This document shows positions 2,259 through 47,636 of a DNA stretch of 64,000 bases, piece after piece (positions within the stretch are counted from its first letter, which is position 1; each line of letters starts with the position of its first letter). This DNA comes from Patescibacteria group bacterium (GTDB lineage Bacteria; Patescibacteriota; Minisyncoccia; Phycocordibacterales; PALSA-1337). The position numbers were made by a program, and so were the translations under genes. Location: contig JAZKBV010000003.1 in assembly GCA_040388415.1 (NCBI GenBank), positions 47,571 through 111,570 of the forward strand, given 5' to 3'. The notes under the pieces are model-generated. The model saw only the letters and a program-made list of their open reading frames with translations, had not been told where the DNA came from and searched no databases.

Positions 2259-2310
2259 CTCGACTAACTTTTTTGTGCGCGCAAGGTTGCCTTACGCTGT
2301 GATTATTTTG

Positions 2311-2383
2311 TGCGCGCACTAGGATTCGAACCTAGGACCCCACCAGTATCAGTGGTGTGCTCTACCAACTGAGCTATGCGCGC
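2311..2383 (-). tRNA. tRNA-Ile (anticodon GAT)
   Basis: Reverse complement folds as cloverleaf: acceptor GCGCGCA/TGCGCGC, D-arm GCTCAGTTGGTAGAGC, anticodon stem CACCA/TGGTG with loop CTGATAC (GAT), T-arm CTAGGTTCGAATCCTAG, discriminator A; CCA not encoded. Confidence 0.85.
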
Positions 2384-6390: not shown

Positions 6391-7785
6391 ATGCTCCATA
6401 CTGAAAGGCTCGTTGTGAATAAAAAACTAGAAGAAGCAGTCAAGTTCCTTGCGCAATTCAACCAAGTGGTAATGCATAAATCCCCGCACTTGGATGAAAT
6501 CGTGGCATATTATCTCCTCAAGGTATACGGCATGCTCAAGGCGAGTGTTCGCTTTGTTGATGCTGACATTACCGGGACAGAAGCTGATCATGATCGTAAT
6601 TGTGTCCTACCAATCGGTTGTGGTGACAATTGTCGCTTCAATGAGCATCGCAAAGGTATCGAGCGACTCAAGGGTGAATGCGCAACGACTCTCGCTGCAA
6701 AATTCCTTGGGATTAACGAACTACCGGAAGTAAAACGCCTCATCGCTGAAGTCCTTAAGTGCGACACCGAAGCAGGTTGCATGCCGACGCAGTTGGCTGA
6801 GTTGGTCAAGGTTGCCAATCGTTCTATGCCGGGAAATTATCTTGGCGTTCTGACATGGGTGACGACTGCTCTCAAGGCAATCATTCACAATGAGCAATAT
6901 CACTTCACGGCTCTTCCCGGCGAGAAATCTCTGGTGGATCTTTTGAAGGCGATGGATGCTGAAGGTAAATACTTCAGCGAGGATTCACGGATCCGTGAGC
7001 ACCTCTTCCGGATATCGCATGACAGTTTGCGCCGTTCGGACAAATGCATAACGGAACTCGCGTCAATATTGCAGGCCATGCATCGTTTGCCCTACAAGGC
7101 AGAGGATATCAGCACTTGGCTCGAGACTCCGCTCTTGCAGATTACTTCAGACCAGCTCCAGTTTTGGCAGCTGGTTGACCTGTATAAAAAGCAGGAAATC
7201 ATTCCGGTGCGCGCGATGGATAACCGTGGCGAATACGAGCTCAAGCTCATGGTCATCGAAAGCGATGATCTGCAAGCGCCTCGTGCAGCTCGGTTTACTG
7301 GTGCAGATATCGTTCTTTGCCGCACTTCGAAGGGTAACGTGATGATCTCTGTTGACACGCGAATCCCCGACCTCAATCTCTCCAACGTGGTCCGCATGAT
7401 ACGTTGGATGGATTTACCTAAGAAGATCACGAATGAGCCGAGTTGGCTTGACTTAGGTGTTCCTGGTGCGCACGACTTGCATTGTTTGGCGCATTGGTAT
7501 TACTTCAAGAAGGGAGAGCAGATCTTCAACGGAAGCCAGACACATTCTGCTCCGCCGACCAAGATACCTACGGAGGCGCTGGTGGAGGCCATCAAGTATG
7601 GTTTGCATCCGCACTATGTCAAAATGTGGTGCAATGATCGGCGCATCGTCATGAACCCGAAACGCTTGGCTGAGGCGATGCAACACAGAAAGCAATCATC
7701 GGAGAAGCCGGCCGGCGACATGGGATTGAAGATTGATCTTCAGCCGAAAAATCGGGCGGCGACTAATGTCGTTGCTGTAGCGTAA
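6391..7785 (+). CDS. Hypothetical protein; N-terminal HxxxHxDE motif reminiscent of MYG1/UPF0160 metal-dependent hydrolases
   Basis: 464 aa; MHKSPHLDEIVAYYLL near N-terminus; no other recognisable motif. Confidence 0.3.
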   Translation: MLHTERLVVNKKLEEAVKFLAQFNQVVMHKSPHLDEIVAYYLLKVYGMLKASVRFVDADITGTEADHDRNCVLPIGCGDNCRFNEHRKGIERLKGECATTLAAKFLGINELPEVKRLIAEVLKCDTEAGCMPTQLAELVKVANRSMPGNYLGVLTWVTTALKAIIHNEQYHFTALPGEKSLVDLLKAMDAEGKYFSEDSRIREHLFRISHDSLRRSDKCITELASILQAMHRLPYKAEDISTWLETPLLQITSDQLQFWQLVDLYKKQEIIPVRAMDNRGEYELKLMVIESDDLQAPRAARFTGADIVLCRTSKGNVMISVDTRIPDLNLSNVVRMIRWMDLPKKITNEPSWLDLGVPGAHDLHCLAHWYYFKKGEQIFNGSQTHSAPPTKIPTEALVEAIKYGLHPHYVKMWCNDRRIVMNPKRLAEAMQHRKQSSEKPAGDMGLKIDLQPKNRAATNVVAVA

Positions 7786-7870: not shown

Positions 7871-9220
7871 ATGCTCTATACTATCTCTATGAATACCCGA
7901 ACCTATTTCCAAGGAAAGCGCATCGCAGTCATAGGTCTGGGTCCGCACGGGGAAATGGTTGATGATGTGAAATTTCTCATAAAAGCAGATGCACTCGTCT
8001 CAGTGTATGATCTCCGTAGCGAAGCACGTCTCAAAAACCATATCATATTTCTTCGCTCAGTCGGCCTGGCGAACTATGTATGCAGCTCTATTCCGCCCGA
8101 TGATTTGCTCGATATGGATCTCATCATCTTGTCGCACGAGTATCCTCGCGATTCGTCCTTTCTCAAAGGCGCTCGTGAAAAGGGTATACAGATCGAATAC
8201 CCCGAAACTCTCTTTTTTCGTCTTGCGCCACCAGTGACAGTTGTCGGCGTCATGGGCGCATATGGCAAAGCCACGGTCGTCTCAGTGCTTGCGCCACTGT
8301 TGGAGATGGCCTGCGAAGCTGATGGCACTCAGGATATGTTCACGCTCGACCCGGAGTCCGGAGACGGTATCCTTATCGCATTGAAAAAGATAAAGAGCGG
8401 AGACATAGCACTCATACGCGTGATCGAATCTATGATGCCGGAACTTTATGAGATGCGCGTCAGCCCGCATGTCGCTATCTTTACGAGCGTTCCGCCGAAG
8501 GGCTCCTACACGACCTCGCCATTTGAGATACTAACCTATCAGACATATAACAATTTTATCATTGCGAGTGATGAGGTCATCGATGCTATCCATCGTTTCA
8601 AATTTCAGCCGAAGGCAAAGATGTTGCGTACGAAATCATCTATCATTCCGGCTTCGTGGTCGCTAGGCATTGAGAATGTAGGTCTTTGGAATCATGATCG
8701 CGATAATGCGGCGCTCGCTCTTCAGGCTGCGCAATTATTCAAGGTTCCTGATGAGGTTTCAGAGTCGCTTATGGAAAAATGGAAGCCGCTCAAAGGCAGG
8801 CTTGAATTCGTCAAAAAGGTAAAGAATATCGAATTTTATAATGATACTGCATCCGTTTCGCCCGGCTCTACGATCGTCGGCGTCCGTTGTTTGAATAAAG
8901 ATCGCAATCTCATTCTCATACTCGGTGGCGTTGATGCTGGCCAGGATTATAGAGAGTTGTATGCCGTATTACCGGTATGTGCTCATACAGTTATTTTGTT
9001 GCCTGGCAGCGGCACAATGAAAGAGCGTAAAACGTTGAATACGATTGATAATGTTACTGTTCTTTCAGCGCCAGATATCCAAGAAGCTGTCAGGCTTGCT
9101 CGTGACAATGCACGCCAAGGCGATCGAGTACTTTTCAGTCCAGGTTTTGCGGCTGGTGGACTTGAATCTTCACGCAAAGAGAGAGGAGAAGCGTTCGTGA
9201 GAGCAGTGAGGACGCTCTAA
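7871..9220 (+). CDS. Mur ligase family, MurD-like (UDP-MurNAc-L-Ala:D-Glu ligase-like) with divergent nucleotide-binding loop
   Basis: MurD-like N-terminal Rossmann (KRIAVIGLGPHG), central GAYGKAT in place of canonical G[ST]NGK[ST]T, C-terminal domain FYNDTAS / ILILGG. Confidence 0.55.
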   Translation: MLYTISMNTRTYFQGKRIAVIGLGPHGEMVDDVKFLIKADALVSVYDLRSEARLKNHIIFLRSVGLANYVCSSIPPDDLLDMDLIILSHEYPRDSSFLKGAREKGIQIEYPETLFFRLAPPVTVVGVMGAYGKATVVSVLAPLLEMACEADGTQDMFTLDPESGDGILIALKKIKSGDIALIRVIESMMPELYEMRVSPHVAIFTSVPPKGSYTTSPFEILTYQTYNNFIIASDEVIDAIHRFKFQPKAKMLRTKSSIIPASWSLGIENVGLWNHDRDNAALALQAAQLFKVPDEVSESLMEKWKPLKGRLEFVKKVKNIEFYNDTASVSPGSTIVGVRCLNKDRNLILILGGVDAGQDYRELYAVLPVCAHTVILLPGSGTMKERKTLNTIDNVTVLSAPDIQEAVRLARDNARQGDRVLFSPGFAAGGLESSRKERGEAFVRAVRTL

Positions 9221-9236
9221 GAAAATCGACTTAATT

Positions 9237-10118
9237 TTATTCGCCGCAAATAAGACAAACAACTGGCCCTTCAATTTTATGTCCTGCATACACTGCTTGC
9301 ATAGCGCCGACAACAGACAGTGCGCTGTTAGTTGAAATATCTAACCCGGTGTGTTTTTCGGTGAGCAGTTGAGCTGTCTCGATGTTTTCATTGGTTGCGA
9401 ACCAGCCATACCCGCCTGTCTTTTGAATGAGCGGGGTTAAGTCATTTTTTCTGTACGCTGTAATATCAGTGATTGCATCAGCGACCGAAGGCTCATCTGG
9501 CCCATCGTAGCTATTCAACCCATCAGAGAGCGGATGACATGAAGATGTTTGTATAATGTGTATCTGAGGAATCTTTGTGGCAGAATTATTTAAAAAATAT
9601 GTCGCCAATGCTTGAGCTGTCGTACCAGATGAGGTACCGATGAATATAGCACCGAGATTTTTGATCTGGCCAAGCTCTTCCGCGAGCGACTCATATCCTT
9701 TGAGAGCGAGGTTGTCGGTTGATTGGCGTAGACTGCGCATGCCATCATTCATCGCTTGAGTGAGTGCTTGGAGAGGGCGTTCTTTCTTGAGGATGCGGAT
9801 ATAGTCGTCGGCGTATGCGAGCAATTTTTGATATTTATGTTCAGCGACATGGTTTCCGACAAAAATATCTAATTCTAACAATGAATCTTTTTTCTCTTTG
9901 TTGAGTTTTTGGATATGGATAGCTGCAGCGAGCGCAGCATTTCCTGATGAAGAGATGGCAAAGCGGCTTTCTCCCTGATTGCGATACACTTCGATCATGA
10001 CTGGTATAGATCTGCCTTTATGTGAGCCATAGGGGCTCAAGTCTTCACGCTTGAAGTAAAGGTTGGTGACGCCAATGGCCGCTGCAAGGTCGCTATATTG
10101 TTCGAGGGGAGTCTGCAT
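9237..10118 (-). CDS. PLP-dependent fold-type-II enzyme, ACC deaminase/D-cysteine desulfhydrase-like
   Basis: LYFKREDLSPYGSHKGRS lysine motif, glycine-rich GTSSGTTAQ loop; 293 aa. Confidence 0.5.
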   Translation of the reverse strand: MQTPLEQYSDLAAAIGVTNLYFKREDLSPYGSHKGRSIPVMIEVYRNQGESRFAISSSGNAALAAAIHIQKLNKEKKDSLLELDIFVGNHVAEHKYQKLLAYADDYIRILKKERPLQALTQAMNDGMRSLRQSTDNLALKGYESLAEELGQIKNLGAIFIGTSSGTTAQALATYFLNNSATKIPQIHIIQTSSCHPLSDGLNSYDGPDEPSVADAITDITAYRKNDLTPLIQKTGGYGWFATNENIETAQLLTEKHTGLDISTNSALSVVGAMQAVYAGHKIEGPVVCLICGE

Positions 10119-10196
10119 GAAAGTATTGTCATACTATCGCATTTCAAGTACTATGGAAAGACAGCCTCGAATACATGAAGCTGCGATTTATTATCT

Positions 10197-10394
10197 ATGA
10201 TTCATCAAAACCTTAAAACCATGAATGCTAAACTTGTATGTCCAGAATGTAAAAATGACGTCGACCTATCGCGCTACCCAAACCTCGTCGTCGGTATGGT
10301 TGTCGAGTGTAACCACTGCGGTATGACGCTTGCTATCAAAGAGATCGCCGACAATGGCGAGGTCAAGGCAGATATCGTAGATGAGGGTAAATAA
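10197..10394 (+). CDS. LysW-like zinc-ribbon small protein (probable start at M9, nt 10221)
   Basis: CPECKNDVDL...PNLVVGMVVECNHCGMTLAI parallels LysW CPECGAELxLxNPELGExVxCxDCGAELEV, acidic C-terminal tail but ends DEGK, not the canonical terminal Glu. Confidence 0.4.
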   Translation: MIHQNLKTMNAKLVCPECKNDVDLSRYPNLVVGMVVECNHCGMTLAIKEIADNGEVKADIVDEGK

Positions 10395-10408
10395 GCTCGA
10401 TTAAAGAC

Positions 10409-11812
10409 TTAGCGGAGCTTATTGACTGTTTCCTCGATCATTCCTCTGAAGCCGTGTGACCCAAGAAAGACGATGCAGTCGTCTTTTTTTGTTTCTGCGA
10501 TGAGGAAGTTAACCAAAGCGGCGTCGTCTTCAAAGTACTTTACATTTTTGTGCGTTTGTTCGATCGTTTGAACCAGATCCGTGCCTTCCATAGGTTTAGC
10601 TGAATCGTCCTCGGGCACTTTGAGTTTTGTGAGACGGGGAATGACAACGACGTCAGCATCTTTAAAAGCATTGTCATATTTGTGGGCAGTTTCGTACTGA
10701 CGTCCACCGATGTTCGGTTCATATACTGCGATAATGTTGCTCTTGTACACTTCTCGGACGCTTTCGAGGACCGAGGTCGCTTTTTCGGCAGTCGGCGCAT
10801 GGCAGTCGAGGAGAGTAACGTCTCCTTCAAATCTTTTTTCAAAGCGGCGTTTGATGCCTTTGAAGTCTTTGATGGCATCGATGATCTTGTCTGTAGGTAT
10901 GCCGACTTCGTGCGCCATGGCAAAAGCAGCAGTTATATTTTCCACATTGAAACGTCCAAGCATTGGTGAATGAATTTCATAGCAGGCATCTTTTGATGTG
11001 ATCTGAAAATGAAGGCCATTTTTCGTGTAGGCGATAGAGTGATATGAATAGTCTGCAGATTCGTTTTTGCCGTAGGTGACGGCTTTTTTTCCCGTAGCCT
11101 CAAGAGTTTTTTTGACGCCATTTTCATCGATACATGCAACGATGAGACCGTCATCTGGAATGCCGGCAACTAATCTTTCAAATGTATCGAAGTAGTCCTT
11201 TTCCGTAGGATAAAGATCAGCATGGTCCCATGAGACAGAAGTGAGAAGGAGATAGGTAGGAGCATAGTACACGAACTTTGGACGGCGGTCTGAGATAGAG
11301 ACTTGGTACTCATCACCCTCGACGACGCTCCAATCAGAATCAGAAAGCGCGCCCGTAGGATGTGAAAGCGAAAGTCCACCGGTAAAATAACTTGGTGTGC
11401 GACCGCTACTGATCATGATAAATGAAAGAAGGGCGGATGCTGTCGTCTTGCCCCATGTGCCAGCAACCACGATTGAATTCTTTTTTATAAAGTATTTCTG
11501 AAGGACTTCGGCATATGAGAATGCAGGGATATTATGTTCTTGTGCGTATAGCGTTTCAGGATTAGAAGGGCTTGTACCGGTGCCACCGATCATGACGAAG
11601 TCAGGCGGTACGTTTCCGTTTGGACAGATGTTCTCAGGGTGCCAGCCAGCATAGTATTCGACGCCCGCATCTTTGAGGTATGTTGAAACAGGAGGAAAGA
11701 AACCCTTATCTGATCCAGTTACTTTGACGCCGGCTTTATGAAAAGCGATAGCGAGCGCGCTGGTTGCTACGCCGCAGATACCGATGACGTGGACGTGTTT
11801 AGGAAGATTCAT
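10409..11812 (-). CDS. Mur ligase, MurC/Mpl family (UDP-N-acetylmuramate:amino acid/peptide ligase)
   Basis: N-terminal HVHVIGICGVATSALAIAFHKAGVKVTGSDKGFFPPVSTYL (Mpl/MurC-type), P-loop VAGTWGKTT, 467 aa. Confidence 0.75.
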   Translation of the reverse strand: MNLPKHVHVIGICGVATSALAIAFHKAGVKVTGSDKGFFPPVSTYLKDAGVEYYAGWHPENICPNGNVPPDFVMIGGTGTSPSNPETLYAQEHNIPAFSYAEVLQKYFIKKNSIVVAGTWGKTTASALLSFIMISSGRTPSYFTGGLSLSHPTGALSDSDWSVVEGDEYQVSISDRRPKFVYYAPTYLLLTSVSWDHADLYPTEKDYFDTFERLVAGIPDDGLIVACIDENGVKKTLEATGKKAVTYGKNESADYSYHSIAYTKNGLHFQITSKDACYEIHSPMLGRFNVENITAAFAMAHEVGIPTDKIIDAIKDFKGIKRRFEKRFEGDVTLLDCHAPTAEKATSVLESVREVYKSNIIAVYEPNIGGRQYETAHKYDNAFKDADVVVIPRLTKLKVPEDDSAKPMEGTDLVQTIEQTHKNVKYFEDDAALVNFLIAETKKDDCIVFLGSHGFRGMIEETVNKLR

Positions 11813-11835
11813 AGAGCTATATTAGCAGATACTGC

Positions 11836-12513
11836 TTATTTCTTCACGAGTATTTTCTTCACTTCTTCAAGATCATCTGACCACTTTGTGCCATCGAACC
11901 ACTCAAGTCCAGCAAATTGGAGCTTGTAGGTATCTGTTGGGCGCTGGAGGGAACCGAGATAGACATATTTTTTAACTGTACCTTTCGCGTGGCTGATAGC
12001 CATGGTCATCATTCCCATGCCCATATCTTTTGGCGACATGTCGATATGATAAAACGGATATGAGTAATGTAGAATGTTTTTATTTTCATAACATATAGCG
12101 TAGCCAAGATTCTCCGCATCTTTTGAATATATGAAAAGGTTTGTGAAGTTGCTCTTGTTGGCATCCGTCAGCATCTCTTTTATCTTTTGCGCGCTCATGA
12201 TGCCTGGTCCGAACTTTTTCTCATAGAAATATTTCGCATCCATAGCCAACTTGTAATTGTAGTCTTTCAAAGGCACTTCAGTCGATTTGAGACTGAGTTC
12301 TTTATCAGTTGCGCCGACCTTCTTCAAAATCCTTTTATTTTCACTCGATAGCTCGAATTTACTCAAATCGATGCGCACGCTTCTTGTCTGGTGCATAACT
12401 CCTTTGCCGATGCGTGTAAAGACATAGCCCTGATCGTACATATCAGAGATATTCTTATCTGAAAAGTCAGTGATTATTTTTTCATTCCAGTGAAGGTATT
12501 CCATATAAACCAA
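11836..12513 (-). CDS. Aminoacyl-tRNA--protein transferase-like protein (Bpt/ATE_C-like, GNAT fold)
   Basis: C-terminal KYVYLGS...YKLQFAGLEWFDGTKW resembles Bpt/ATE1 C-terminal motif KYLYLGYWI..M.YK..F.P.E.L..G.W; 225 aa. Confidence 0.4.
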   Translation of the reverse strand: MVYMEYLHWNEKIITDFSDKNISDMYDQGYVFTRIGKGVMHQTRSVRIDLSKFELSSENKRILKKVGATDKELSLKSTEVPLKDYNYKLAMDAKYFYEKKFGPGIMSAQKIKEMLTDANKSNFTNLFIYSKDAENLGYAICYENKNILHYSYPFYHIDMSPKDMGMGMMTMAISHAKGTVKKYVYLGSLQRPTDTYKLQFAGLEWFDGTKWSDDLEEVKKILVKK

Positions 12514-12516
12514 GGG

Positions 12517-13644
12517 TTAGTGCAACGCCAGCCAGAATCCGAATACGACGAAGATAAAATGAATGACCCAGAAACGCATGACAGTTTTTTCTTCACTCCA
12601 ACCTTTGATCTCAAAATGATGATGAAGAGGAGCCATAGCAAAGACTTTTCTGCCAAAGAGGTATCGTGAGCCGACTTGTATGAGGACTGAAAAAGCTTCG
12701 ATATAGAACATGAAGCCGAGGAAAAAGAGAGAGCTGAGCTCACCGATAGCGAGCGTGTTCACTGCGAGGAGGGCACCCAAGCCGAGCGATCCCACGTCGC
12801 CCATCATGAATCGAGCTGGTTTGATATTGAAATACGTATAGGTCGCCAGTGCACCCACGGTTGTCGCATTCAGAATAGCGATCTCTCCAAAACCGTTGAT
12901 CCATGAGAGGAGGGCGAGGGCGCTAAATGTGGTGACGAGCATGCCGCCAGCGAGGCCGTCCATGCCATCAGCGATGTTGACTGCATTCGCTGTGAACATA
13001 ACTACAAGGATGACGATCGGCACGATGAACCAACCTGCATCGATCGCGAAGTTGAAAGGAAAATAGATGAAATGCCACGCAGGCCCGAGTCTCCAATAGA
13101 CCCACCAGGCGGTCACACTTCCAGCGATGAATTGGAGGATGAGCTTTTCATGGACAAGGACACCGCGACGTGTACGCGAACCGAACCAGACTGAGAGGCG
13201 CTTGAACATAGTCCAAGGGAGCGTGATGATGTACCAGAGACGCATCGACCACTGCTTGTGGATGCGTATGAGTATGAGGATATGTTTGAGCTTGCGTGAA
13301 TGGCGTTCTGCGCCATATATGCTCATGAGATCGTCGACTCCTCCCAAAAGAGCAGAGATGAGCATAACTGCAATCGGTACCCACGTAAAACTGCGAGACC
13401 AATTGAAAAGGAATGTGATGATAGCCACTGTCAGGATGACGAGTAGTCCTCCCATGACTGGTGTTTTTGATTTATATGCATGTGAGCCGAGCCCTTGAAG
13501 CTCAGTTTTGGCTCCTTTGACGACATTGTAGCGATAGAGCAGTCGAGTGAGGAATGGTGCCCAGAGAAAAGAAACGATGGTGCCTGCCAGCATAAAACCC
13601 ATAATATAAGCCAAATCAGCGGTTCCTTGGAGAATGCTTAACAT
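12517..13644 (-). CDS. mraY: Phospho-N-acetylmuramoyl-pentapeptide transferase
   Basis: KSKTPVMGGL, NAVNIADGMDGLAGG, MGDVGSLGLG, APLHHHFE motifs; 10 TM. Confidence 0.9.
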   Translation of the reverse strand: MLSILQGTADLAYIMGFMLAGTIVSFLWAPFLTRLLYRYNVVKGAKTELQGLGSHAYKSKTPVMGGLLVILTVAIITFLFNWSRSFTWVPIAVMLISALLGGVDDLMSIYGAERHSRKLKHILILIRIHKQWSMRLWYIITLPWTMFKRLSVWFGSRTRRGVLVHEKLILQFIAGSVTAWWVYWRLGPAWHFIYFPFNFAIDAGWFIVPIVILVVMFTANAVNIADGMDGLAGGMLVTTFSALALLSWINGFGEIAILNATTVGALATYTYFNIKPARFMMGDVGSLGLGALLAVNTLAIGELSSLFFLGFMFYIEAFSVLIQVGSRYLFGRKVFAMAPLHHHFEIKGWSEEKTVMRFWVIHFIFVVFGFWLALH

Positions 13645-13684
13645 ACGTTACAGCGTAGCATGTTTTACTGTTATTTTGAACCTT

Positions 13685-14464
13685 TTAGGAGAAGATGTGC
13701 AGGCGTCGAAGCGAGGTGAGTGATTTTTGTGCACGGGCATATATACGGTTCATTGGGCCCGTAGTGCCACCTTCGGTCCAAACTTGTTCAGTGATCGGTT
13801 TTTCTGGATTAAGTATCTCGACGACGCCTTGCTTGATGCCGCTTCCGTATATGCCATCTTCAGGATACGCGACTGCATGCGCATAGTGTATTTTTGCTGG
13901 AGTGAAGTTTTGATATTCAATCTGATATATGACAAGCACATGATCGCGATCTGTGCCATCAGGTCCGCCGATCATAGTAATGATATCTCCAGGTTGAGCT
14001 TCTTTGATCTCGATTGTTCTACTGTTTTTCTCATGAGCAAATGTTGCGACGTCACAATTCTCGATAGGGCGGAGAGCGCAGCGTACTTTACCGATCAATC
14101 CGGTGCAGTTAATGAAATGTATATGTTTGTCGAGCGATCCTTTTTTTAATTCTTGGGATTCAGTATTCAATACATAGTAAGCAAATGCTGAACAGTCGAT
14201 ACCTATGTTGTTATCAGTGAGTGTTTTTTTGAGGAGCTCATTTGTGACTGCCGACTGATCAGCATGATCTTTGAGCATGATGCTCTTTATCTCCTCGAAT
14301 ATTTCTTGCGGGCTACCTTTGCCTATAGTGCTTCGGAGGGCGGCGCGTGCTCGCGTCGTCTTGTTGTTGAAATAAGGTATAGAGCAAACCGCTCCGCCAA
14401 TAGTAAAATGGAGATATTGGTCGATGACAGATAAGGCTCGGTTTGAGAGTGTCTTGGTATTCAT
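13685..14464 (-). CDS. Putative papain-fold cysteine hydrolase (NlpC/P60-CHAP-like)
   Basis: GIDCSAFAYYVL (Cys motif) and GDIITMIGG...DHVLVIY (His motif) in correct order; 259 aa. Confidence 0.35.
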   Translation of the reverse strand: MNTKTLSNRALSVIDQYLHFTIGGAVCSIPYFNNKTTRARAALRSTIGKGSPQEIFEEIKSIMLKDHADQSAVTNELLKKTLTDNNIGIDCSAFAYYVLNTESQELKKGSLDKHIHFINCTGLIGKVRCALRPIENCDVATFAHEKNSRTIEIKEAQPGDIITMIGGPDGTDRDHVLVIYQIEYQNFTPAKIHYAHAVAYPEDGIYGSGIKQGVVEILNPEKPITEQVWTEGGTTGPMNRIYARAQKSLTSLRRLHIFS

Positions 14465-14479
14465 ATGTGGATTATATCA

Positions 14480-15730
14480 CTACTGACTGCTCATCACGTC
14501 GACGATCTCTTTTCCTCGCTTGTTGAATCTACCATGAGTCTCCATGATGCCAAGCATGCTCTGGATACGGAGAAGATCAGTATTCTCATCAATATTAGGG
14601 TAAAGAATAGTCTGATGTCCAAGCTTGGCAAGAGCTTGTAACTGTTTATCAGAAATACTTTGTGTGATGCGGGTCACGCGCTGGATGATCTGTGAGCCGT
14701 CGTTTATCGGAATGATGCGCTCTTCTCCTTTCTCCTTTCTCCTTTCTTCTAATGCGCCAAGGTGCGCCTCAAATATAGTCTGACCATCGACGCCGAGCTC
14801 ACGATTCTTCTGTTGCAACTGCGACTCATATGTCGTTGATGCTGGCTGGCGCGCATTGATCTCGATCAAGAATATCTTGTTCAATTCATCGTCGCGCATA
14901 ACATCGATGCCGAAGAGGCCTCTCCAACCGTCAGTCTGTAGTTTGCCTGCTACATCGGTAGCCATGGCTTCTATGACGCCGATCTCATCTTCATTCAATA
15001 GGGAATGGGTGAGCGACCAGTCGTTACCTATTGTGGTGAACAGATTTTCGGTGAATGGGGGAATACCAGTGATCTGGTAGCTGATATTGCCGAGAAATAT
15101 ATTTTTTTCACTGACTACGACATTGAGTGTGAACGAAGGGCCGTGCACATATGAACTGACGCGCGCAAGTCTTTCAGGAAATTTTTCTTGCACAGCTTTG
15201 AGTTCATCGGCTGAATTGACCAATGTGGTACCGAGACCCGTATGGCTATGGGCCCATTGAATGATTAACGGCTTCTTATTCCACATGATATCTTTGGCTA
15301 TGGTAAGCGAATGAGCAGGGAGGTATTTTTCACCGAGTGCGCCAAGATATTCTACTTGGGTCATTTTATTTTCGATCTTTTCTGCGAGCATGCTTGAGGG
15401 GTTCAACAAGTTCCAGTTATTTTTTTTGCAGATTTCTTCTATCTGAGGTGTATTTTTGAATACAAGAATCGAGATATTATTTACAGCGATATTTTTAATG
15501 AATGAATGGACAGCCTCATGGTTGAGCAACTCGCGCGTATCCAAAAGCTCGCCATCTTTTTGCGTTGTTTCTATCAAATGAATAAAGTCAGGATAGATTT
15601 TTTTGACTGATTCCGCATACGCAGTCTTATTCGCCATGATTTGATAGCCTGCATGTGGCTGTGCGCCTAAAGCGCGTTCAATATCGCGTGTGACGTAGAG
15701 TGCAACAGGGGTTTCGGATGATTTTGCCAT
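14480..15730 (-). CDS. ATP-grasp domain ligase with N-terminal extra domain
   Basis: C-terminal GWRGLFGIDVM...KIFLIEINARQ ATP-grasp signature; 416 aa. Confidence 0.6.
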   Translation of the reverse strand: MAKSSETPVALYVTRDIERALGAQPHAGYQIMANKTAYAESVKKIYPDFIHLIETTQKDGELLDTRELLNHEAVHSFIKNIAVNNISILVFKNTPQIEEICKKNNWNLLNPSSMLAEKIENKMTQVEYLGALGEKYLPAHSLTIAKDIMWNKKPLIIQWAHSHTGLGTTLVNSADELKAVQEKFPERLARVSSYVHGPSFTLNVVVSEKNIFLGNISYQITGIPPFTENLFTTIGNDWSLTHSLLNEDEIGVIEAMATDVAGKLQTDGWRGLFGIDVMRDDELNKIFLIEINARQPASTTYESQLQQKNRELGVDGQTIFEAHLGALEERRKEKGEERIIPINDGSQIIQRVTRITQSISDKQLQALAKLGHQTILYPNIDENTDLLRIQSMLGIMETHGRFNKRGKEIVDVMSSQ

Positions 15731-17004: not shown

Positions 17005-17289
17005 ATGTCAAAACGCCAATTAATTATTCTATTTGCTGCTCTTATTATTTTATTCACTCTCGTTCTAGGTCTACGGTCAGTGTGGACGTCGACGCTCAAC
17101 ATCATATTGGCTCTTCTTATCATCGCGGTTGCGTATACAACCACTCGACCATCTCAAAATTCGGCCAAGAAATCAATGAATGCGCCGTACGTCGACGCTC
17201 ATGGTGGCACATCATCCGCGCCAGCATTCCGCGCTCCTGCTCCGTCTGAACCTGAACCAGAAGCAAAAGAACCAACTCCACAAATATAA
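17005..17289 (+). CDS. Small membrane protein with Pro/Ala/Glu-rich tail (94 aa)
   Basis: ATG at 17005 preceded by TATAAT at ~16990; one or two TM helices (LIILFAALIILFTLVLGL; LNIILALLIIAVAY). Confidence 0.45.
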   Translation: MSKRQLIILFAALIILFTLVLGLRSVWTSTLNIILALLIIAVAYTTTRPSQNSAKKSMNAPYVDAHGGTSSAPAFRAPAPSEPEPEAKEPTPQI

Positions 17290-18524
17290 TGAAGATTCGC
17301 GAGTATAGCGCAAAAGCCCAGATCGCAACGGTCATTGTAGTGGCTTTTGTTCTTGTCCTTGCAGGTGTCTCGTGTGCGTGGTTCTTGCCACTCGGTAAAG
17401 TTTCATATTCAGATCAATCAGCTTATGCCGCTACGAGCACACCTGCTGTTGTCGCAGTTGAAATTGCCTCTACAACTCCTGTATTTGTGGTCACCCATAT
17501 CACTACACCTCAACCAGTCAAAGCGGCATACTATACCAGTTGGGCTGCGGGCACACCTTCATTTAAAAAACAAATGTTCGCGCTCATCGATGATTCTGAG
17601 CTTAATAGTCTCGTCATCGACGTAAAAGATTATAGTGGACGAATCAGTTTTCCCATGGATGACCCAAAGATACGTAAGATAGGATCGGTGCAGGAGCGCA
17701 TCCCTGAGATCAAAGAGATGATAGGGCAGCTTCATGACAAGGGTATATATGTCATCGGCCGGGTGGCAGTCTTCCAGGATCCATTTATTGTGAAGGTCCA
17801 CCCTGAATGGGCGGTGCTCGACAAACGAACAGGTAAACAATGGAAAGATTCGGGCGGTGCATATTGGGCTGATCCAGACAAAAAAGAGATGTGGGATTAT
17901 GTCACTACGATCGCCAAAGAGGCATATGCGGTCGGCTTTGATGAAATCAATTTTGACTACGTACGTTTTCCTTCTGATGGTGCTCTTGGCAATGCTCTAT
18001 TTGATAAGCCAGCAAGTACGACGAAGGCAGTTGCACTCAAAGAGTTTTTCTCATATCTACATGATGAATTATCACCACTTGGTATCACGATTTCAGCGGA
18101 TATTTTTGGTCAGGTGACAAGCGATAAAGGAGACATGGGCATAGGTCAGCATTTTGAGAATGTATTGCCATATTTTGATTACGTCAGTCCTATGGTATAT
18201 CCGTCCCATTACATCTCAGGATTTTTGAATTATACAAAGCCCGCAGAGCATCCTTACGAGATCGTTAAATATGAATTGGATACAGCGGTAGCGCGAGCAA
18301 TCGCTGCTTCATCAAGCCCAGAGAAGATCCGTCCATGGCTTCAGGCATTCGATCTCGGCGCTATCTATACACCTGCAATGGTTCATACCCAGATGCAAGC
18401 CACAGCTGACGCGGGCGCGAATGGGTGGCTGCTTTGGAATGCAGGATCAGTGTACAAGAGGGAATTTGTCATGCCATATATGCACGCAACGACTACAGCA
18501 AAAGCTCCTGTGAAAGTCATATAG
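17289..18524 (+). CDS. Putative secreted/membrane-anchored glycoside hydrolase-like TIM-barrel protein (DUF4015/GHL-like)
   Basis: N-terminal TM anchor, then SLVIDVKDYSG, YVIGRVAVFQD, GFDEINFDYVRFP, YVSPMVYPSHY motifs typical of putative glycosyl hydrolase-like family. Confidence 0.4.
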   Translation: MKIREYSAKAQIATVIVVAFVLVLAGVSCAWFLPLGKVSYSDQSAYAATSTPAVVAVEIASTTPVFVVTHITTPQPVKAAYYTSWAAGTPSFKKQMFALIDDSELNSLVIDVKDYSGRISFPMDDPKIRKIGSVQERIPEIKEMIGQLHDKGIYVIGRVAVFQDPFIVKVHPEWAVLDKRTGKQWKDSGGAYWADPDKKEMWDYVTTIAKEAYAVGFDEINFDYVRFPSDGALGNALFDKPASTTKAVALKEFFSYLHDELSPLGITISADIFGQVTSDKGDMGIGQHFENVLPYFDYVSPMVYPSHYISGFLNYTKPAEHPYEIVKYELDTAVARAIAASSSPEKIRPWLQAFDLGAIYTPAMVHTQMQATADAGANGWLLWNAGSVYKREFVMPYMHATTTAKAPVKVI

Positions 18525-18923: not shown

Positions 18924-18960
18924 AACCCGACGCCTGGAGGCCGTCGGGTTGTTTTCTTTT
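18924..18960 (+). terminator. Rho-independent terminator
   Basis: aacccgacg-loop-cgtcgggtt followed by gttttctttt. Confidence 0.6.
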
Positions 18961-19014
18961 GTTTATAGTTGCTACTTAATTTATGATACAATAGTATCAA
19001 ACACCGTTATTTAT

Positions 19015-45502: not shown

Positions 45503-46597
45503 ATGATTATTCAAGAAAATATATCTCTAGCTCAATATACGACATTCAAGATCGGCGGTTCAGCTCGATTTTTTTGTTTAGTGACGGGCATAGATGAATT
45601 AAAGGAAGCAGTCAAGTTCGCAAAAGAAAAAAACGTACCTTTCTTTGTCCTTGGTGGAGGGTCAAATGTGCTCATCTCAGATGAAGGATTCCATGGCCTG
45701 GTCATAAAGATGGAGATAAAGGGGAAAGTTAAAAGGCAAAAGTTAAAAGGCAAAAATGAAAGTCAAAAGAGTGAAAATATAGAACTTGAGATTGTTTCTG
45801 CTGGCGCAGGAGAAATGTGGGATGATTTTGTCGAATGGACACTTGCTAACGGTTTCAATGGATTGGAAAATCTTTCAGCTATTCCTGGCACTGTCGGCGC
45901 TGCGCCTGTGCAGAATATCGGCGCGTATGGAGCAGAGATCGGACAGTTTGTTTCGAGTGTTCATGCATTTGATACTCATACGATGAAAGAGATTGAATTG
46001 AATGCTCGTGACTGTCATTTCGGTTACAGAAACAGCTTGTTCAAACACGAAAAGGGAAGATATATTGTCACTTGCGTTGATTTTTCTTTGAAGAAAGATG
46101 GGAAGGTGAATGTTGAGTACAGGGATTTGAAGGAGTATTTTAATAAGTTACAAGTGACAAGTGGACCCAGTGGCGAATCTGCTGATTCGAAGGTACAAGA
46201 AATCACACCATCGCAGGTTCGTGAGGCAGTGATTGATATTCGTTGGCATAAATTGCCTGATTGGAATAAGTGGGGCACTGCAGGATCGTTTTTCAAAAAC
46301 CCTGTGGTCACACAAGAAAAGTTTGATGAGTTGAAAGTTAAGTACCCAGCGATGCCGAGCTTCCCCGAGGCTAGTGGCGGCGTCAAAATACCGCTTGGTT
46401 GGATACTCGATAATGTGTGTCATCTCAAAGGCGTTATGACTGGCGGTGTAGGCACCTATGAAAAGCAGGCACTGGTCATCGTCACCAAGCCAGGAGCTAA
46501 AGCAAAAGAGGTAGTCGATTTTACGCATGATTTGATGAAGCAAGTGAAGGACGCGACCGGGATTACGATCGAAGCTGAGGTGGAATGGGTGAATTAG
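45503..46597 (+). CDS. murB: UDP-N-acetylenolpyruvoylglucosamine reductase
   Basis: FAD-binding FKIGGSARFF, VLGGGSNVL; C-terminal MurB domain; contains short Lys-rich tandem-repeat insertion. Confidence 0.9.
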   Translation: MIIQENISLAQYTTFKIGGSARFFCLVTGIDELKEAVKFAKEKNVPFFVLGGGSNVLISDEGFHGLVIKMEIKGKVKRQKLKGKNESQKSENIELEIVSAGAGEMWDDFVEWTLANGFNGLENLSAIPGTVGAAPVQNIGAYGAEIGQFVSSVHAFDTHTMKEIELNARDCHFGYRNSLFKHEKGRYIVTCVDFSLKKDGKVNVEYRDLKEYFNKLQVTSGPSGESADSKVQEITPSQVREAVIDIRWHKLPDWNKWGTAGSFFKNPVVTQEKFDELKVKYPAMPSFPEASGGVKIPLGWILDNVCHLKGVMTGGVGTYEKQALVIVTKPGAKAKEVVDFTHDLMKQVKDATGITIEAEVEWVN

Positions 46598-47607: not shown

Positions 47608-47636
47608 GTCTCAAATATGCTAAAGTGCCTGTTACT

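What the first reader, a model, noticed from the sequence alone, without database searches (positions are those of the whole stretch)
9237..15730. Peptidoglycan-precursor cluster carrying non-canonical accessory genes
Core genes are present: a MurD-like ligase, a MurC/Mpl-family ligase and MraY. Co-localised with them are five unusual genes: a fold-type-II PLP enzyme of the ACC-deaminase/D-Cys-desulfhydrase type (which could supply or racemise an amino acid), a LysW-like zinc-ribbon protein, an ATE_C/Bpt-like aminoacyl-tRNA-dependent transferase homolog, an NlpC/P60-like cysteine hydrolase and an ATP-grasp ligase. Together they look like a module for making or editing a non-standard stem peptide or cross-bridge, with tRNA-dependent or ATP-grasp amino-acid addition and a dedicated trimming peptidase.
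Basis: inference. Interest (0 to 1): 0.6.

Follow-up and report, generated by a model that had tools for sequence, protein, structure and literature searches.

The report
Cell-wall precursor operon with unusual partners
This window from an ultra-small Parcubacteria-group (CPR) bacterium carries a tightly conserved operon in which cell-wall precursor enzymes (MurC/Mpl-type ligase, MraY, a MurD relative) are linked, and in relatives physically fused, to a tRNA-dependent transferase homologue, an ATP-grasp ligase, a probable cysteine amidase, a small PLP enzyme and a LysW-like zinc-ribbon protein, which suggests a cell-wall peptide chemistry that I could not find described in the papers I searched.

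Summary
All eight ORFs and their domain assignments were recovered. There are three corrections. The MurD-like gene lies just outside the stated range. The PLP enzyme resembles threonine synthases, dehydratases and racemases, not ACC deaminase. The NlpC/P60 call is weak.

The gene order is ATP-grasp, P60-like, MraY, ATE-like, MurC/Mpl-like, LysW-like Zn-ribbon, PLP enzyme. It is nearly invariant in 80 species-level genomes. It also recurs in Magasanikbacteria with completely different flanking genes.

Gene fusions tie the accessory genes to the Mur enzymes. ATP-grasp is fused to P60-like in at least 62 protein clusters. ATE-like is fused to the MurC/Mpl ligase. The ligase is fused to P60-like and, separately, to MurB. 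ATP-grasp is fused to NUDIX.

Predicted structures place the ATE-like protein among aminoacyl-tRNA transferases (ATE1, MprF, FemX). They place the ATP-grasp among PurK-type enzymes and amino-acid or peptide ligases, not Ddl or LysX.

The most likely function is a lineage-specific module that builds or edits a modified or branched UDP-MurNAc-peptide before MraY. The chemistry is entirely inferred. I could not test whether canonical copies of these genes exist elsewhere in the genome. I found no published description. Verdict: new variant of a known kind; interest about 0.67.

The parts
14480..15730 (-). ATP-grasp carboxylate-amine ligase (416 aa), first gene of the 5-gene minus-strand operon
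13685..14464 (-). Probable NlpC/P60-type (papain-like) cysteine amidase, cytoplasmic (259 aa)
   Evidence: Pfam NLPC_P60 22.8 bits vs cutoff 23. 4/24 members match. Invariant C91 (DCS motif), H175 and H196. No PDB sequence hit. Fused to the ATP-grasp or to the MurC/Mpl-like ligase in relatives.
12517..13644 (-). MraY, phospho-MurNAc-peptide translocase (375 aa)
   Evidence: TIGR00445 183.6 bits (cutoff 192); WecA only 36 bits. VDDLMS, NAVNIADGMDGLAGG and PLHHHFE are present in the translation; I recall these as MraY catalytic motifs. Linked to the ATE-like gene in 73/73 loci.
11836..12504 (-). ATE/Bpt-superfamily aminoacyl-tRNA transferase homologue (about 222 aa from the conserved Met; the ORF extends to 12513)
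10409..11812 (-). MurC/Mpl-family UDP-MurNAc ligase (467 aa), a distinct CPR subfamily
   Evidence: All three Mur-ligase domains. murC 255 and mpl 197 bits, both below cutoff. Profile vs PDB: Mpl 3hn7 207.4 bits, about equal to MurC 1gqq 207.0. Has GICG, GSD..FPPVS and EGDEY..S..D.R.KF like Mpl. WDHAD, GKTT and RR catalytic residues retained. MurC L-Ala residues H376/R377 align to N/I.
10221..10394 (+). LysW-like zinc-ribbon protein (57 aa from the conserved Met; the ORF starts at 10197) with invariant C-terminal ...(E/D)IVDEGK
   Evidence: Pfam Zn_ribbon_LysW in 20/20 members, best 2.9e-8. Top two PDB profile hits are LysW proteins, E 0.033 and 0.087. Tail conservation shown. Present in 61/64 loci. 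Divergently paired with PALP; the pair is inverted together in L086.
9237..10118 (-). Minimal fold-type II PLP enzyme (293 aa)
   Evidence: Pfam PALP 110 bits. Invariant K34 (GSHKGR), SSSGN and GTSSGTT. PDB profile hits: threonine synthases 1e-14, aspartate racemase 6e-10, Ser/Thr dehydratases, serine racemase. Present in 62/63 loci.
7871..9220 (+). MurD-derived protein (449 aa) with an atypical central domain; more loosely linked to the block
   Evidence: TIGR murD 130 bits (cutoff 212); Mur_ligase_M not detected. Full-length profile hit to S. agalactiae MurD, 2.9e-35. In the alignment the Mg-binding Glu is Arg, the DHxD His is Lys/Gly, the carbamylated Lys is an invariant Gln, and the NDSK Lys is Ala. 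Present in 50/57 loci and absent from the Magasanikbacteria block.
45503..46597 (+). MurB (UDP-MurNAc synthesis). Distant in this window but directly adjacent to the block in Magasanikbacteria and in L054/L076
   Evidence: Pfam FAD_binding_4 + MurB_C. MurB sits immediately upstream of the ATP-grasp gene in L054, L076, L087, L088 and L089. A ligase-MurB fusion exists, P0293.

Best explanation
This is a conserved operon of the Parcubacteria group. It encodes the cytoplasmic assembly line for a lineage-specific, modified or branched peptidoglycan precursor.

Shown here:
- The block holds a catalytically intact MurC/Mpl-family UDP-MurNAc ligase and an intact MraY.
- It holds an aminoacyl-tRNA-transferase-fold protein (ATE/Bpt/Fem/MprF superfamily).
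- It holds an ATP-grasp ligase of the PurK / amino-acid-ligase / PylC structural group.
- Next to the ATP-grasp, or fused to it, is a probable NlpC/P60 Cys-His hydrolase.
- It holds a small PLP enzyme and a LysW-like Zn-ribbon protein.
- All of these are linked by conserved gene order and by gene fusions.

Inferred mechanism:
1. MurB makes UDP-MurNAc.
2. The MurC/Mpl-like ligase attaches L-Ala or a short peptide.
3. MurE and MurF, encoded elsewhere, complete the stem. The MurD relative may take part.
4. The ATE-like enzyme transfers an amino acid from an aminoacyl-tRNA to a free amino group of the nucleotide- or lipid-linked peptide. This is a Fem-like step.
5. The ATP-grasp ligase adds a further residue in an ATP-dependent step. 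That residue is probably a D- or non-proteinogenic amino acid made by the PLP enzyme, by analogy with the Asl ligase and racemase pair.
6. The P60-like amidase reverses or proof-reads that bond.
7. The LysW-like protein acts as an adaptor or carrier for one of these enzymes.
8. MraY then loads the finished precursor onto the lipid carrier.
For: - Domain and fold assignments.
- Tight operon structure in the window. Gaps between the five minus-strand genes are 15, 40, 3-12 and 23 bp.
- Near-invariant linkage in 80 species-level genomes.
- The same 7-gene block, next to MurB, occurs in Magasanikbacteria and Wolfebacteria with unrelated flanks. A rearranged version occurs in L090: ATE-like, then ligase-P60 fusion, then MraY.
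- Fusions: ATP-grasp+P60-like in >=62 clusters; ATE-like+ligase in L089 and L034; ligase+P60-like (P0364); ligase+MurB (P0293); ATP-grasp+NUDIX, with an intact NUDIX box in 9/15, which hints at a nucleotide-linked substrate.
- The MraY motifs and the ligase catalytic residues are intact.
- Parcubacteria, including the C7867 clade that carries this block (L041), have murA, murB, murE, murF, murG, murJ, ftsI and rodA. That clade lacks the FemAB-type protein found in most other OD1 genomes (PMC4508563).
- Known precedents recalled in PMC2922099: Fem ligases for L-amino-acid and Gly bridges, and ATP-grasp ligases for D-amino-acid bridges.
Against: - No biochemical or muropeptide data exist. Every catalytic step is inferred from context.
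- The NlpC/P60 assignment is weak.
- Synteny in this lineage also extends to unrelated neighbours (RsmI, RadC, pyruvate kinase, DUF4015). Gene order within Paceibacteria alone is therefore weak evidence. The cross-lineage block and the fusions carry the argument.
- The ATE-like protein is very strongly conserved, more like an essential core enzyme than an optional decoration.
- The MurD relative lacks residues I recall as invariant in Mur ligases, so the canonical order of steps may not hold.
- The ligase has Mpl-like features, and the MurC L-Ala-binding His/Arg are changed. This leaves room for a peptide-loading route.
- I could not inspect whole genomes for canonical MurC, MurD, MraY, Ddl, Alr or MurI.
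Confidence: 0.5

Rival explanations
1. Housekeeping replacement. The peptidoglycan is ordinary. The accessory genes are non-orthologous substitutes for missing standard enzymes. The ATP-grasp makes the D-Ala-D-Ala (or D-Ala-D-X) dipeptide for MurF in place of Ddl. The PLP enzyme is the amino-acid racemase in place of Alr or MurI. The ATE-like protein replaces FemX. The P60-like protein is a dipeptidase or recycling amidase.
For: - The Parcubacteria core gene table lists murA, B, E, F, G, J but no ddl, no racemase, and no murC, murD or mraY rows (PMC4508563 supplement).
- The PLP enzyme's profile hits include PLP-dependent Asp and Ser racemases, and it has an SSSGN motif.
- L-amino-acid (dipeptide) ligases are among the closest structural neighbours of the ATP-grasp.
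- All members are very highly conserved, as expected for essential genes.
Against: - Fusing a dipeptide synthetase to an amidase or a NUDIX hydrolase is hard to explain for a simple Ddl role.
- The LysW-like protein has no role in this model.
- The core table is a >=13-of-17-genomes list built from annotation. A missing row is weak evidence of absence.
Confidence: 0.2
2. Salvage or off-nucleotide peptide route. The ligase works like Mpl and loads a pre-formed peptide onto UDP-MurNAc. The peptide is either scavenged from host muropeptides and trimmed by the P60-like amidase, or assembled or repaired off the nucleotide by the ATE-like and ATP-grasp enzymes, possibly on the C-terminal Lys tail of the LysW-like carrier.
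For: - Mpl-like sequence features are present: GICG, GSD..FPPVS, DEY plus a relative of the (S/T)AFFDKRSK segment. All 150 nearest representative clusters share them, including a bona fide Mpl, P0302.
- The MurC L-Ala-binding H376/R377 are not conserved.
- The ligase is fused to P60-like and to ATE-like. Those fusions would be consecutive steps only if the ligase handles peptides.
- ATE/Bpt enzymes act on N-terminal Asp/Glu (my recollection, not checked). That would suit adding L-Ala to a gamma-D-Glu peptide.
- The MurD relative looks catalytically atypical.
- The Zn-ribbon protein has a LysW-like carrier fold.
- CPR bacteria depend on hosts for building blocks (PMC13293708).
Against: - The TIGR murC model scores higher than the mpl model (255 vs 197), and both are below cutoff.
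- A DEY/RPKY-type segment also occurs in the PDB MurC 9ir5 (EACEYTNSFLNFRPKY), which I take to be Gram-positive-type, so the motif is not exclusive to Mpl.
- MurE and MurF are retained in these lineages. That would be redundant if whole peptides were loaded.
- The cluster ATP-grasp is not of the LysX/RimK type that partners LysW.
- No transporter for muropeptides is conserved in the block.
Confidence: 0.18
3. The block makes a different lipid-linked glycopeptide (not the sacculus peptidoglycan), or some accessory genes are only syntenic passengers with unrelated functions, for example an N-end-rule transferase and a general amino-acid enzyme.
For: - Long-range synteny with clearly unrelated genes exists in Paceibacteria.
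- Every family-specific score is below its curated cutoff.
- A large surface-glycan cluster lies nearby in the window.
Against: - The block persists with different flanks in other lineages.
- Four kinds of fusion join the accessory proteins to each other or to the Mur ligase.
- MraY has the HHH and DD motifs I recall as typical of MurNAc-pentapeptide translocases.
- MurB adjoins the block in several lineages.
Confidence: 0.07

Closest known systems
Fem/MurM aminoacyl-tRNA-dependent peptidoglycan branch transferases (e.g. Weissella viridescens FemX, S. aureus FemX/A/B)
   Different: There is no Pfam FemAB match. The protein is half the size, about 222 aa. The best structural and sequence relatives are ATE1 and Bpt. 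In some genomes it is fused to a Mur ligase. Donor and acceptor are unknown.
ATE1 / Bpt N-end-rule aminoacyl-tRNA-protein transferases
   Different: Scores are far below the family cutoffs (29-36 bits vs 170-358). No match to the ATE_N domain was found; from memory the protein also seems to lack ATE_N's Cys-rich motif, which I did not check. Genomic context and fusions point to a peptidoglycan-precursor substrate, not protein N-termini.
Aslfm/AslA D-aspartate ligase plus aspartate racemase of Enterococcus faecium / Lactococcus lactis (ATP-grasp cross-bridge synthesis)
   Same: An ATP-grasp ligase is encoded with an amino-acid-modifying enzyme in a peptidoglycan context. It would add a residue to UDP-MurNAc-pentapeptide using ATP (precedent cited in PMC2922099).
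   Different: The partner here is a fold-type II PLP enzyme, not a PLP-independent Asp/Glu racemase. The ATP-grasp is paired or fused with a Cys-His hydrolase or with NUDIX. No sequence comparison with Asl could be run with the tools available.
Mpl, murein peptide ligase of the recycling pathway (E. coli, Psychrobacter arcticus 3hn7)
   Same: It is the equal-best PDB match (207 bits). It shares GICG, GSD..(Y/F)PP(M/V)S, the Tyr of DEY, and a diverged version of the (S/T)AFFDKRSK segment.
   Different: The TIGR01081 score is 197 against a cutoff of 389. The motif reads VSISDRRPK. The C-terminal substrate domain differs from both Mpl and MurC. The gene sits in a biosynthetic operon with MraY rather than standing alone.
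LysW/ArgW amino-group carrier proteins with LysX/ArgX ATP-grasp ligases
   Same: The Zn-ribbon globular domain matches (CPEC...C..CG; Pfam and PDB best hits). It has a flexible acidic C-terminal tail. An ATP-grasp gene is in the same cluster.
   Different: The tail ends ...VDEGK, with a terminal Lys, instead of ...EDWGE, with a terminal Glu. The conserved ATP-grasp is of the PurK/Lal type, not RimK/LysX. No LysZ, LysY, LysJ or LysK homologues were seen among the annotated cluster genes or flanks. The context is peptidoglycan, not lysine or arginine synthesis.
Glutathionylspermidine synthetase/amidase and carbamoyl-phosphate synthetase (ligase plus Cys-His hydrolase pairs)
   Same: The architecture pairs an ATP-dependent ligase with a Cys-His hydrolase in one protein or operon. 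The hydrolase either makes and breaks the same amide bond or supplies an amine. This comparison comes from my own knowledge, not from a test here.
   Different: No sequence relationship was shown. The substrate context here is UDP-MurNAc-peptide.

Membership tests
MurC (UDP-MurNAc:L-Ala ligase, TIGR01082) | Score at or above the curated equivalog cutoff (335.1 bits) | tested here: not met
   255.3 bits. The nearest relatives, P0246-P0271, are also below cutoff.
MurC (UDP-MurNAc:L-Ala ligase, TIGR01082) | L-Ala-binding residues of H. influenzae MurC (Tyr346, His348, His376, Arg377, Arg380; PMC3060825) | tested here: not met
   In the profile alignment to 1gqq, QPHRYSR aligns to EPNIGGR. His376 becomes Asn and Arg377 becomes Ile. 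Arg380 is kept.
Mpl (murein peptide ligase, TIGR01081) | Score at or above the curated cutoff (388.7 bits) | tested here: not met
   196.9 bits.
Mpl (murein peptide ligase, TIGR01081) | Mpl-specific motifs: GI(C/G)GTFM, Tyr182 of DEY, (S/T)AFFDKRSK (PMC3060825) | tested here: inconclusive
   The window protein has GICGVATS and EGDEYQVSISDRRPKF. The Tyr and the D.RxK core are present, the rest has diverged. A similar segment also occurs in the PDB MurC 9ir5.
Mur ligase superfamily | Three-domain architecture and catalytic residues (P-loop Lys, Mg-binding Glu, DHxD His, Asn pair, Arg, Asp) | tested here: met
   This row is for the MurC/Mpl-like protein. Pfam finds Mur_ligase, Mur_ligase_M and Mur_ligase_C. 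GTWGKTT, EGDEY, WDHAD, FNVEN, KRR and LLD are present and invariant in the family.
MurD (TIGR01087) | Score at or above cutoff (211.95 bits), plus the central-domain residues I recall as invariant: Mg-binding Glu, His of DHxD, carbamylated Lys | tested here: not met
   130.5 bits; Mur_ligase_M not detected. In the alignment with S. agalactiae MurD, Glu is Arg, His is Lys/Gly, and Lys is an invariant Gln. The P-loop and the HxxxN motif are kept.
MraY (TIGR00445) | Score at or above cutoff (192.05 bits) | tested here: not met
   183.6 bits, which is narrowly below. The next family, WecA, scores only 36 bits.
MraY (TIGR00445) | Catalytic Asp-Asp, the N..N..DG.DGL motif and the HHH motif (motif set recalled from memory) | tested here: met
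   VDDLMS, NAVNIADGMDGLAGG and APLHHHFE are all present in the translation.
ATE1/Bpt aminoacyl-tRNA-protein transferases (PF04377; NCBIfam PRK01305 models) | Sequence score above the family cutoffs | tested here: not met
   ATE_C 17.6 bits vs cutoff 25. Bpt models 29-36 bits vs cutoffs of 170-358. Many homologues do carry a precomputed PF04377 hit.
ATE1/Bpt aminoacyl-tRNA-protein transferases (PF04377; NCBIfam PRK01305 models) | GNAT-type aa-tRNA transferase fold | tested here: met
ATE1/Bpt aminoacyl-tRNA-protein transferases (PF04377; NCBIfam PRK01305 models) | Uses aminoacyl-tRNA as donor | not testable with these tools
   This needs an in vitro assay.
FemABX family (PF02388) | Sequence membership in FemAB | tested here: not met
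LysW/ArgW amino-group carrier proteins | LysW-type Zn-ribbon globular domain | tested here: met
   20/20 family members hit PF21344, best E 2.9e-8. The window protein scores 24-25 bits against a cutoff of 27. The top two PDB profile hits are LysW, at E 0.033 and 0.087.
LysW/ArgW amino-group carrier proteins | C-terminal acidic tail ending in Glu (EDWGE), whose gamma-carboxyl carries the substrate (recalled from memory) | tested here: not met
   The tail is (E/D)IVDEGK in 62 of 66 distinct sequences and always ends in Lys.
LysW/ArgW amino-group carrier proteins | Partner LysX/ArgX (RimK-type ATP-grasp) and LysZ/Y/J/K genes | tested here: not met
NlpC/P60 (PF00877) | Family score and the Cys-His-His/polar catalytic triad in a papain-like fold | tested here: inconclusive
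   22.8 bits vs cutoff 23. 4/24 members match at E<0.01, and one hits Amidase_6. C91, H175 and H196 are invariant. hhalign to an E. coli Spr sequence recalled from memory gives only 27 columns at 53% probability. No structure model could be made.
D-Ala-D-Ala ligase (Ddl) | Ddl-type ATP-grasp sequence and structure | tested here: not met
Fold-type II PLP enzymes (PF00291) | PALP domain with the PLP-binding Lys | tested here: met
   110.5 bits vs cutoff 35. K34 is invariant in GSHKGR.
ACC deaminase / D-cysteine desulfhydrase subfamily | Closest relatives are ACC deaminases or D-Cys desulfhydrases | tested here: not met
   None appear among the NCBIfam or PDB hits. The best hits are threonine synthases, an Asp racemase and Ser/Thr dehydratases.

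The most novel reading that the evidence does not exclude
Parcubacteria-group bacteria do not build their stem peptide only by the textbook MurC-D-E-F relay. Instead, an Mpl-type ligase loads a peptide that is assembled or repaired off the nucleotide. An ATE/Bpt-like aminoacyl-tRNA transferase and a PurK/Lal-type ATP-grasp ligase do this work on the C-terminal Lys tail of a LysW-like carrier protein. An NlpC/P60 enzyme releases or transfers the peptide. The MurD homologue has become a non-catalytic or re-purposed subunit. This would be a carrier-protein, tRNA-dependent route to peptidoglycan precursors.
Probability: 0.12. Interest if true: 0.9.

Novelty: new variant of a known kind. Interest (0 to 1): 0.67.

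Why it matters
The cell envelope of CPR/Patescibacteria is still called unclear in the papers I read (PMC5220378; PMC8871954). This group makes up a large share of bacterial diversity. Reviews say only that peptidoglycan genes are frequently present (PMC13293708).

This block gives a concrete and widely conserved set of candidate enzymes for a lineage-specific wall chemistry. The ATE-like and ATP-grasp searches each returned more than a thousand homologous protein clusters, spread over at least two lineages.

The candidates are: an ATE/Bpt-type tRNA-dependent transferase where Fem enzymes would be expected; a ligase-amidase pair that is often one protein; a LysW-like protein with a Lys-ending tail; and a MurD relative that lacks residues I recall as invariant in Mur ligases.

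Each protein is small, soluble and testable in vitro with UDP-MurNAc-peptides and aa-tRNA. If the model is confirmed, it would extend tRNA-dependent and carrier-protein chemistry in cell-wall synthesis. It could also help explain how host-dependent ultra-small bacteria obtain wall building blocks.

Tried and rejected
- The exact-sequence look-up of the ligase found only a 4-kb contig, so it gave no wider context.
- Profile searches of the ATE-like, ATP-grasp and P60-like families against PDB sequences found nothing significant. I therefore used structure prediction for the first two. The P60-like protein could not be modelled because the cap is two jobs.
- The afdb50 fold library was unavailable. 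I could not look for Asl-type D-Asp ligases among structural neighbours.
- I tried to settle MurC versus Mpl using HMM scores, nearest neighbours and motifs. The result is ambiguous. The family lies between or outside both curated models. The 'Mpl-specific' segment also resembles one in the PDB MurC 9ir5, which I take to be Gram-positive-type.
- I considered the ATP-grasp as a LysX-like partner of the Zn-ribbon, and as a Ddl. Neither is favoured structurally.
- I looked for Zn-ribbon fusions and for other proteins ending in DEGK. There are none.
- I checked for a dedicated tRNA near the block. The only tRNA is tRNA-Ile(GAU), about 7 kb from the cluster's nearest gene.
- The promoter and terminator scans were uninformative.
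- Nine literature searches found no description of this block. The paper by Iyer et al. 2009 on amidoligases was not available.
- I could not read whole genomes. Whether canonical murC, murD, mraY, ddl or racemase genes exist elsewhere rests only on the core-gene table of PMC4508563.

Full report
**1. What is in the window.**

The region holds eight genes. Five sit tightly packed on the minus strand:
- ATP-grasp, 14480-15730
- NlpC/P60-like, 13685-14464
- MraY, 12517-13644
- ATE/Bpt-like, 11836-12513 (the conserved Met is at 12504)
- MurC/Mpl-like ligase, 10409-11812

The gaps between them are 15, 40, 3-12 and 23 bp.

A 57-65 aa Zn-ribbon gene follows on the plus strand (10197/10221-10394). 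It converges on the ligase gene and diverges from a PLP-enzyme gene (9237-10118, minus strand). A MurD-like gene (7871-9220, plus strand) converges on the PLP gene.

Nearly all family-specific scores fall below the curated cutoffs:

| Protein / model | Score (bits) | Cutoff (bits) |
|---|---|---|
| murC | 255 | 335 |
| mpl | 197 | 389 |
| murD | 130 | 212 |
| mraY | 183.6 | 192 |
| ATE_C | 17.6 | 25 |
| NLPC_P60 | 22.8 | 23 |
| Zn_ribbon_LysW | 24 | 27 |

The flanking genes include DUF5671, DUF4015, RsmI, RadC and pyruvate kinase. Named homologues come from Paceibacteria, Parcubacteria and Taylorbacteria MAGs. The source is therefore a Patescibacteria (CPR) genome, and the exact proteins sit on a 131,680-bp NCBI MAG contig.

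MurB lies 30 kb away, next to SecA.

**2. Is the neighbourhood conserved?**

The ATE-like protein has 1705 homologous clusters, and the listed top hits are 59-100% identical.

A scan of one genome per GTDB species returned 169 matches, of which I analysed 80 loci. The order ATP-grasp, P60-like, MraY, ATE-like, ligase, Zn-ribbon (opposite strand), PALP, MurD-like (opposite strand) is nearly invariant.

Linkage to the ATE-like gene, counted only where the locus has enough flanking sequence:

| Gene | Loci with the gene / eligible loci |
|---|---|
| MraY | 73/73 |
| ATP-grasp | 68/68 |
| P60-like | 70/71 |
| Ligase | 64/64 |
| Zn-ribbon | 61/64 |
| PALP | 62/63 |
| MurD-like | 50/57 |

The single P60-like exception, L076, is a fusion with the ATP-grasp.

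In these genomes unrelated neighbours (RsmI, RadC, PK, DUF4015) are also syntenic. Gene order inside this lineage is therefore not sufficient evidence by itself.

The decisive observation is that the block recurs in other lineages with entirely different flanks. In Magasanikbacteria and Wolfebacteria it reads MurB, ATP-grasp, P60-like, MraY, ATE-like, ligase, Zn-ribbon, PALP. The flanks there are SecA, SecDF and S30AE, and no MurD-like gene is nearby. A more distant contig, L090, carries ATE-like, then a ligase-P60 fusion, then MraY.

**3. Gene fusions.**

- The ATP-grasp and P60-like proteins are a single polypeptide in at least 62 distinct 90%-identity clusters, 615-772 aa long.
- The ATE-like protein is fused to the N-terminus of the MurC/Mpl-like ligase in L089 (681 aa; ATE 1-218, ligase 218-678) and in L034.
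- The ligase is fused to the P60-like domain in P0364, and to MurB in P0293.
- In another set of Magasanikbacteria the ATP-grasp carries a C-terminal NUDIX domain. The NUDIX box is intact in 9 of 15. This hints at a nucleoside-diphosphate-linked substrate.

These fusions connect ATP-grasp, P60-like, ligase, ATE-like and MurB into one functional network. They are the strongest evidence here that the accessory genes act on UDP-MurNAc-derived precursors.

**4. The individual proteins.**

*PLP enzyme.* It is a minimal fold-type II enzyme with the catalytic Lys. It is nearest to threonine synthases, then to a PLP-dependent Asp racemase and to Ser/Thr dehydratases. It is not ACC-deaminase-like.

*Zn-ribbon.* All 20 family members tested hit the LysW globular-domain model, and LysW proteins are the two best PDB hits. 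The tail is (E/D)IVDEGK and always ends in Lys, where LysW ends in Glu.

*P60-like.* It has invariant Cys91 (in a DCS motif), His175 and His196. Sequence support is only borderline, and no structure could be obtained.

*MraY.* It has the DD, N..N..DG.DGL and HHH motifs, which I recall as the MraY catalytic motifs.

*Ligase.* It retains the Mur-ligase catalytic residues checked and looks fully competent. It scores equally against Mpl (3hn7) and MurC (1gqq). It shares the GICG, GSD..FPPVS and DEY..D.R.KF features with Mpl. The His376 and Arg377 that bind L-Ala in H. influenzae MurC align to Asn and Ile. All 150 nearest representative clusters in a 1.84-billion-protein library are of this Mpl-like or intermediate type; I checked ten of them against the curated models and one, P0302, is a bona fide Mpl.

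*MurD-like.* It aligns over its full length to MurD. It has Arg in place of the Mg-binding Glu, Lys/Gly in place of the DHxD His, an invariant Gln in place of the carbamylated Lys, and Ala in place of the NDSK Lys. It may not be a canonical MurD.

**5. The rest of the pathway.**

I could not read whole genomes. The core-gene table of Nelson and Stegen (PMC4508563) covers 17 Parcubacteria, including the C7867 clade that carries this block (L041 is C7867-002). It lists murA, murB, murE, murF (next to ftsI), murG, murJ, rodA and mreB. It has no rows for murC, murD, mraY, ddl or any racemase.

[quoted passage not shown] This fits two ideas:
- the block supplies the lineage's MurC-type ligase and MraY;
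- the ATE-like enzyme takes the Fem role.

It is only indirect evidence for either.

**6. Interpretation.**

The best-supported reading (confidence about 0.5) is a lineage-specific module that assembles and edits a modified or branched UDP-MurNAc-peptide before MraY. In this reading:
- a tRNA-dependent (Fem-like) step is done by the ATE-like enzyme;
- an ATP-dependent amino-acid addition is done by the ATP-grasp, which would be Asl-like, with the PLP enzyme supplying the residue;
- the P60-like amidase reverses or proof-reads that bond;
- the LysW-like protein acts as an adaptor or carrier.

Three rivals remain:
- Non-orthologous replacement of Ddl, the racemases and FemX, giving an ordinary wall (about 0.2).
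- An Mpl-type salvage or off-nucleotide peptide route, possibly on the LysW-like carrier (about 0.18).
- A different glycopeptide product, or passenger genes (about 0.07).

Functional coupling to peptidoglycan precursor synthesis is well supported. The specific chemistry is not.

**7. Novelty.**

Nine full-text searches, plus reading of CPR genome papers and a 2026 review, found no description of this block or of any of its accessory families.

The parts belong to known superfamilies. The combination does not match any known system I compared it with:
- an ATE/Bpt-type transferase linked or fused to a Mur ligase;
- an ATP-grasp and P60 fusion;
- a LysW-like protein with a Lys-ending tail;
- an atypical MurD relative.

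I rate it a new variant of a known kind, with interest about 0.67.

Noticed in passing
window 7871-9220 (+): The MurD-like protein keeps the P-loop and the HxxxN motif. It has lost the Mg-binding Glu (now Arg), the His of DHxD (now Lys/Gly), the carbamylated Lys (now an invariant Gln) and the Lys of NDSK (now Ala). I recall these as invariant Mur-ligase residues. The family is still 42-91% conserved. It may be a re-purposed or non-catalytic Mur ligase.
   Followed up: partly
window 20973-45236: A large surface-glycan gene cluster. It contains many GT1/GT2/GT4/GT11/GT17 glycosyltransferases, a GDP-mannose 4,6-dehydratase, a DegT-type aminotransferase, epimerases, several methyltransferases (including FkbM type), a Polysacc_synt flippase and a Wzy_C/O-antigen-ligase protein with TPR repeats.
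   Followed up: no
window 18949-20952 (+) and 17289-18524 (+): A VirD4/TraG-like coupling-protein ATPase lies next to a DUF4015 putative glycosyl hydrolase. The pair is syntenic with the block in most Paceibacteria loci and in the Wolfebacteria locus L091.
   Followed up: no
window 6391-7785 (+): A 464-aa ORF with no Pfam or NCBIfam hit sits between RadC and the MurD-like gene. Homologues are present at this position in only about 6-7 of 80 related loci, so it is not part of the conserved block.
   Followed up: partly
window 45503-46597 (+) and 47625-50195 (+): MurB lies next to SecA here. In Magasanikbacteria the same SecA-...-MurB arrangement directly abuts the ATP-grasp end of the block. 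This suggests an ancestral MurB-block linkage that was broken in this genome.
   Followed up: partly
L052:1703-2560 and L088:7810-8721: An extra RimK-type ATP-grasp gene is inserted between the ATE-like and ligase genes in two divergent loci, close to the LysW-like gene. RimK/LysX-type enzymes are the known partners of LysW.
   Followed up: partly
L088:1220-2848 and proteins P0459, P0472-P0475, P0478, P0482-P0498: These are ATP-grasp-NUDIX fusion proteins in Magasanikbacteria. Most have an intact NUDIX box. In L088 a separate P60-like gene follows.
   Followed up: partly
L086 (about 12.7-13.4 kb): The Zn-ribbon/PALP gene pair is inverted as a unit relative to all other loci, and keeps its divergent arrangement. 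This suggests the two genes form a regulatory or functional pair.
   Followed up: no
window 2310-2383 (-): A single tRNA-Ile(GAU) gene is the only RNA gene detected in the 64-kb window. It lies about 7 kb from the cluster's nearest gene, with no sign of a dedicated cell-wall tRNA.
   Followed up: yes
L005:4190-6552: One related locus has a reverse-transcriptase gene, a Y1 transposase and a HicA toxin inserted between the ATP-grasp and P60-like genes. The block therefore tolerates insertion of mobile elements at that junction.
   Followed up: no
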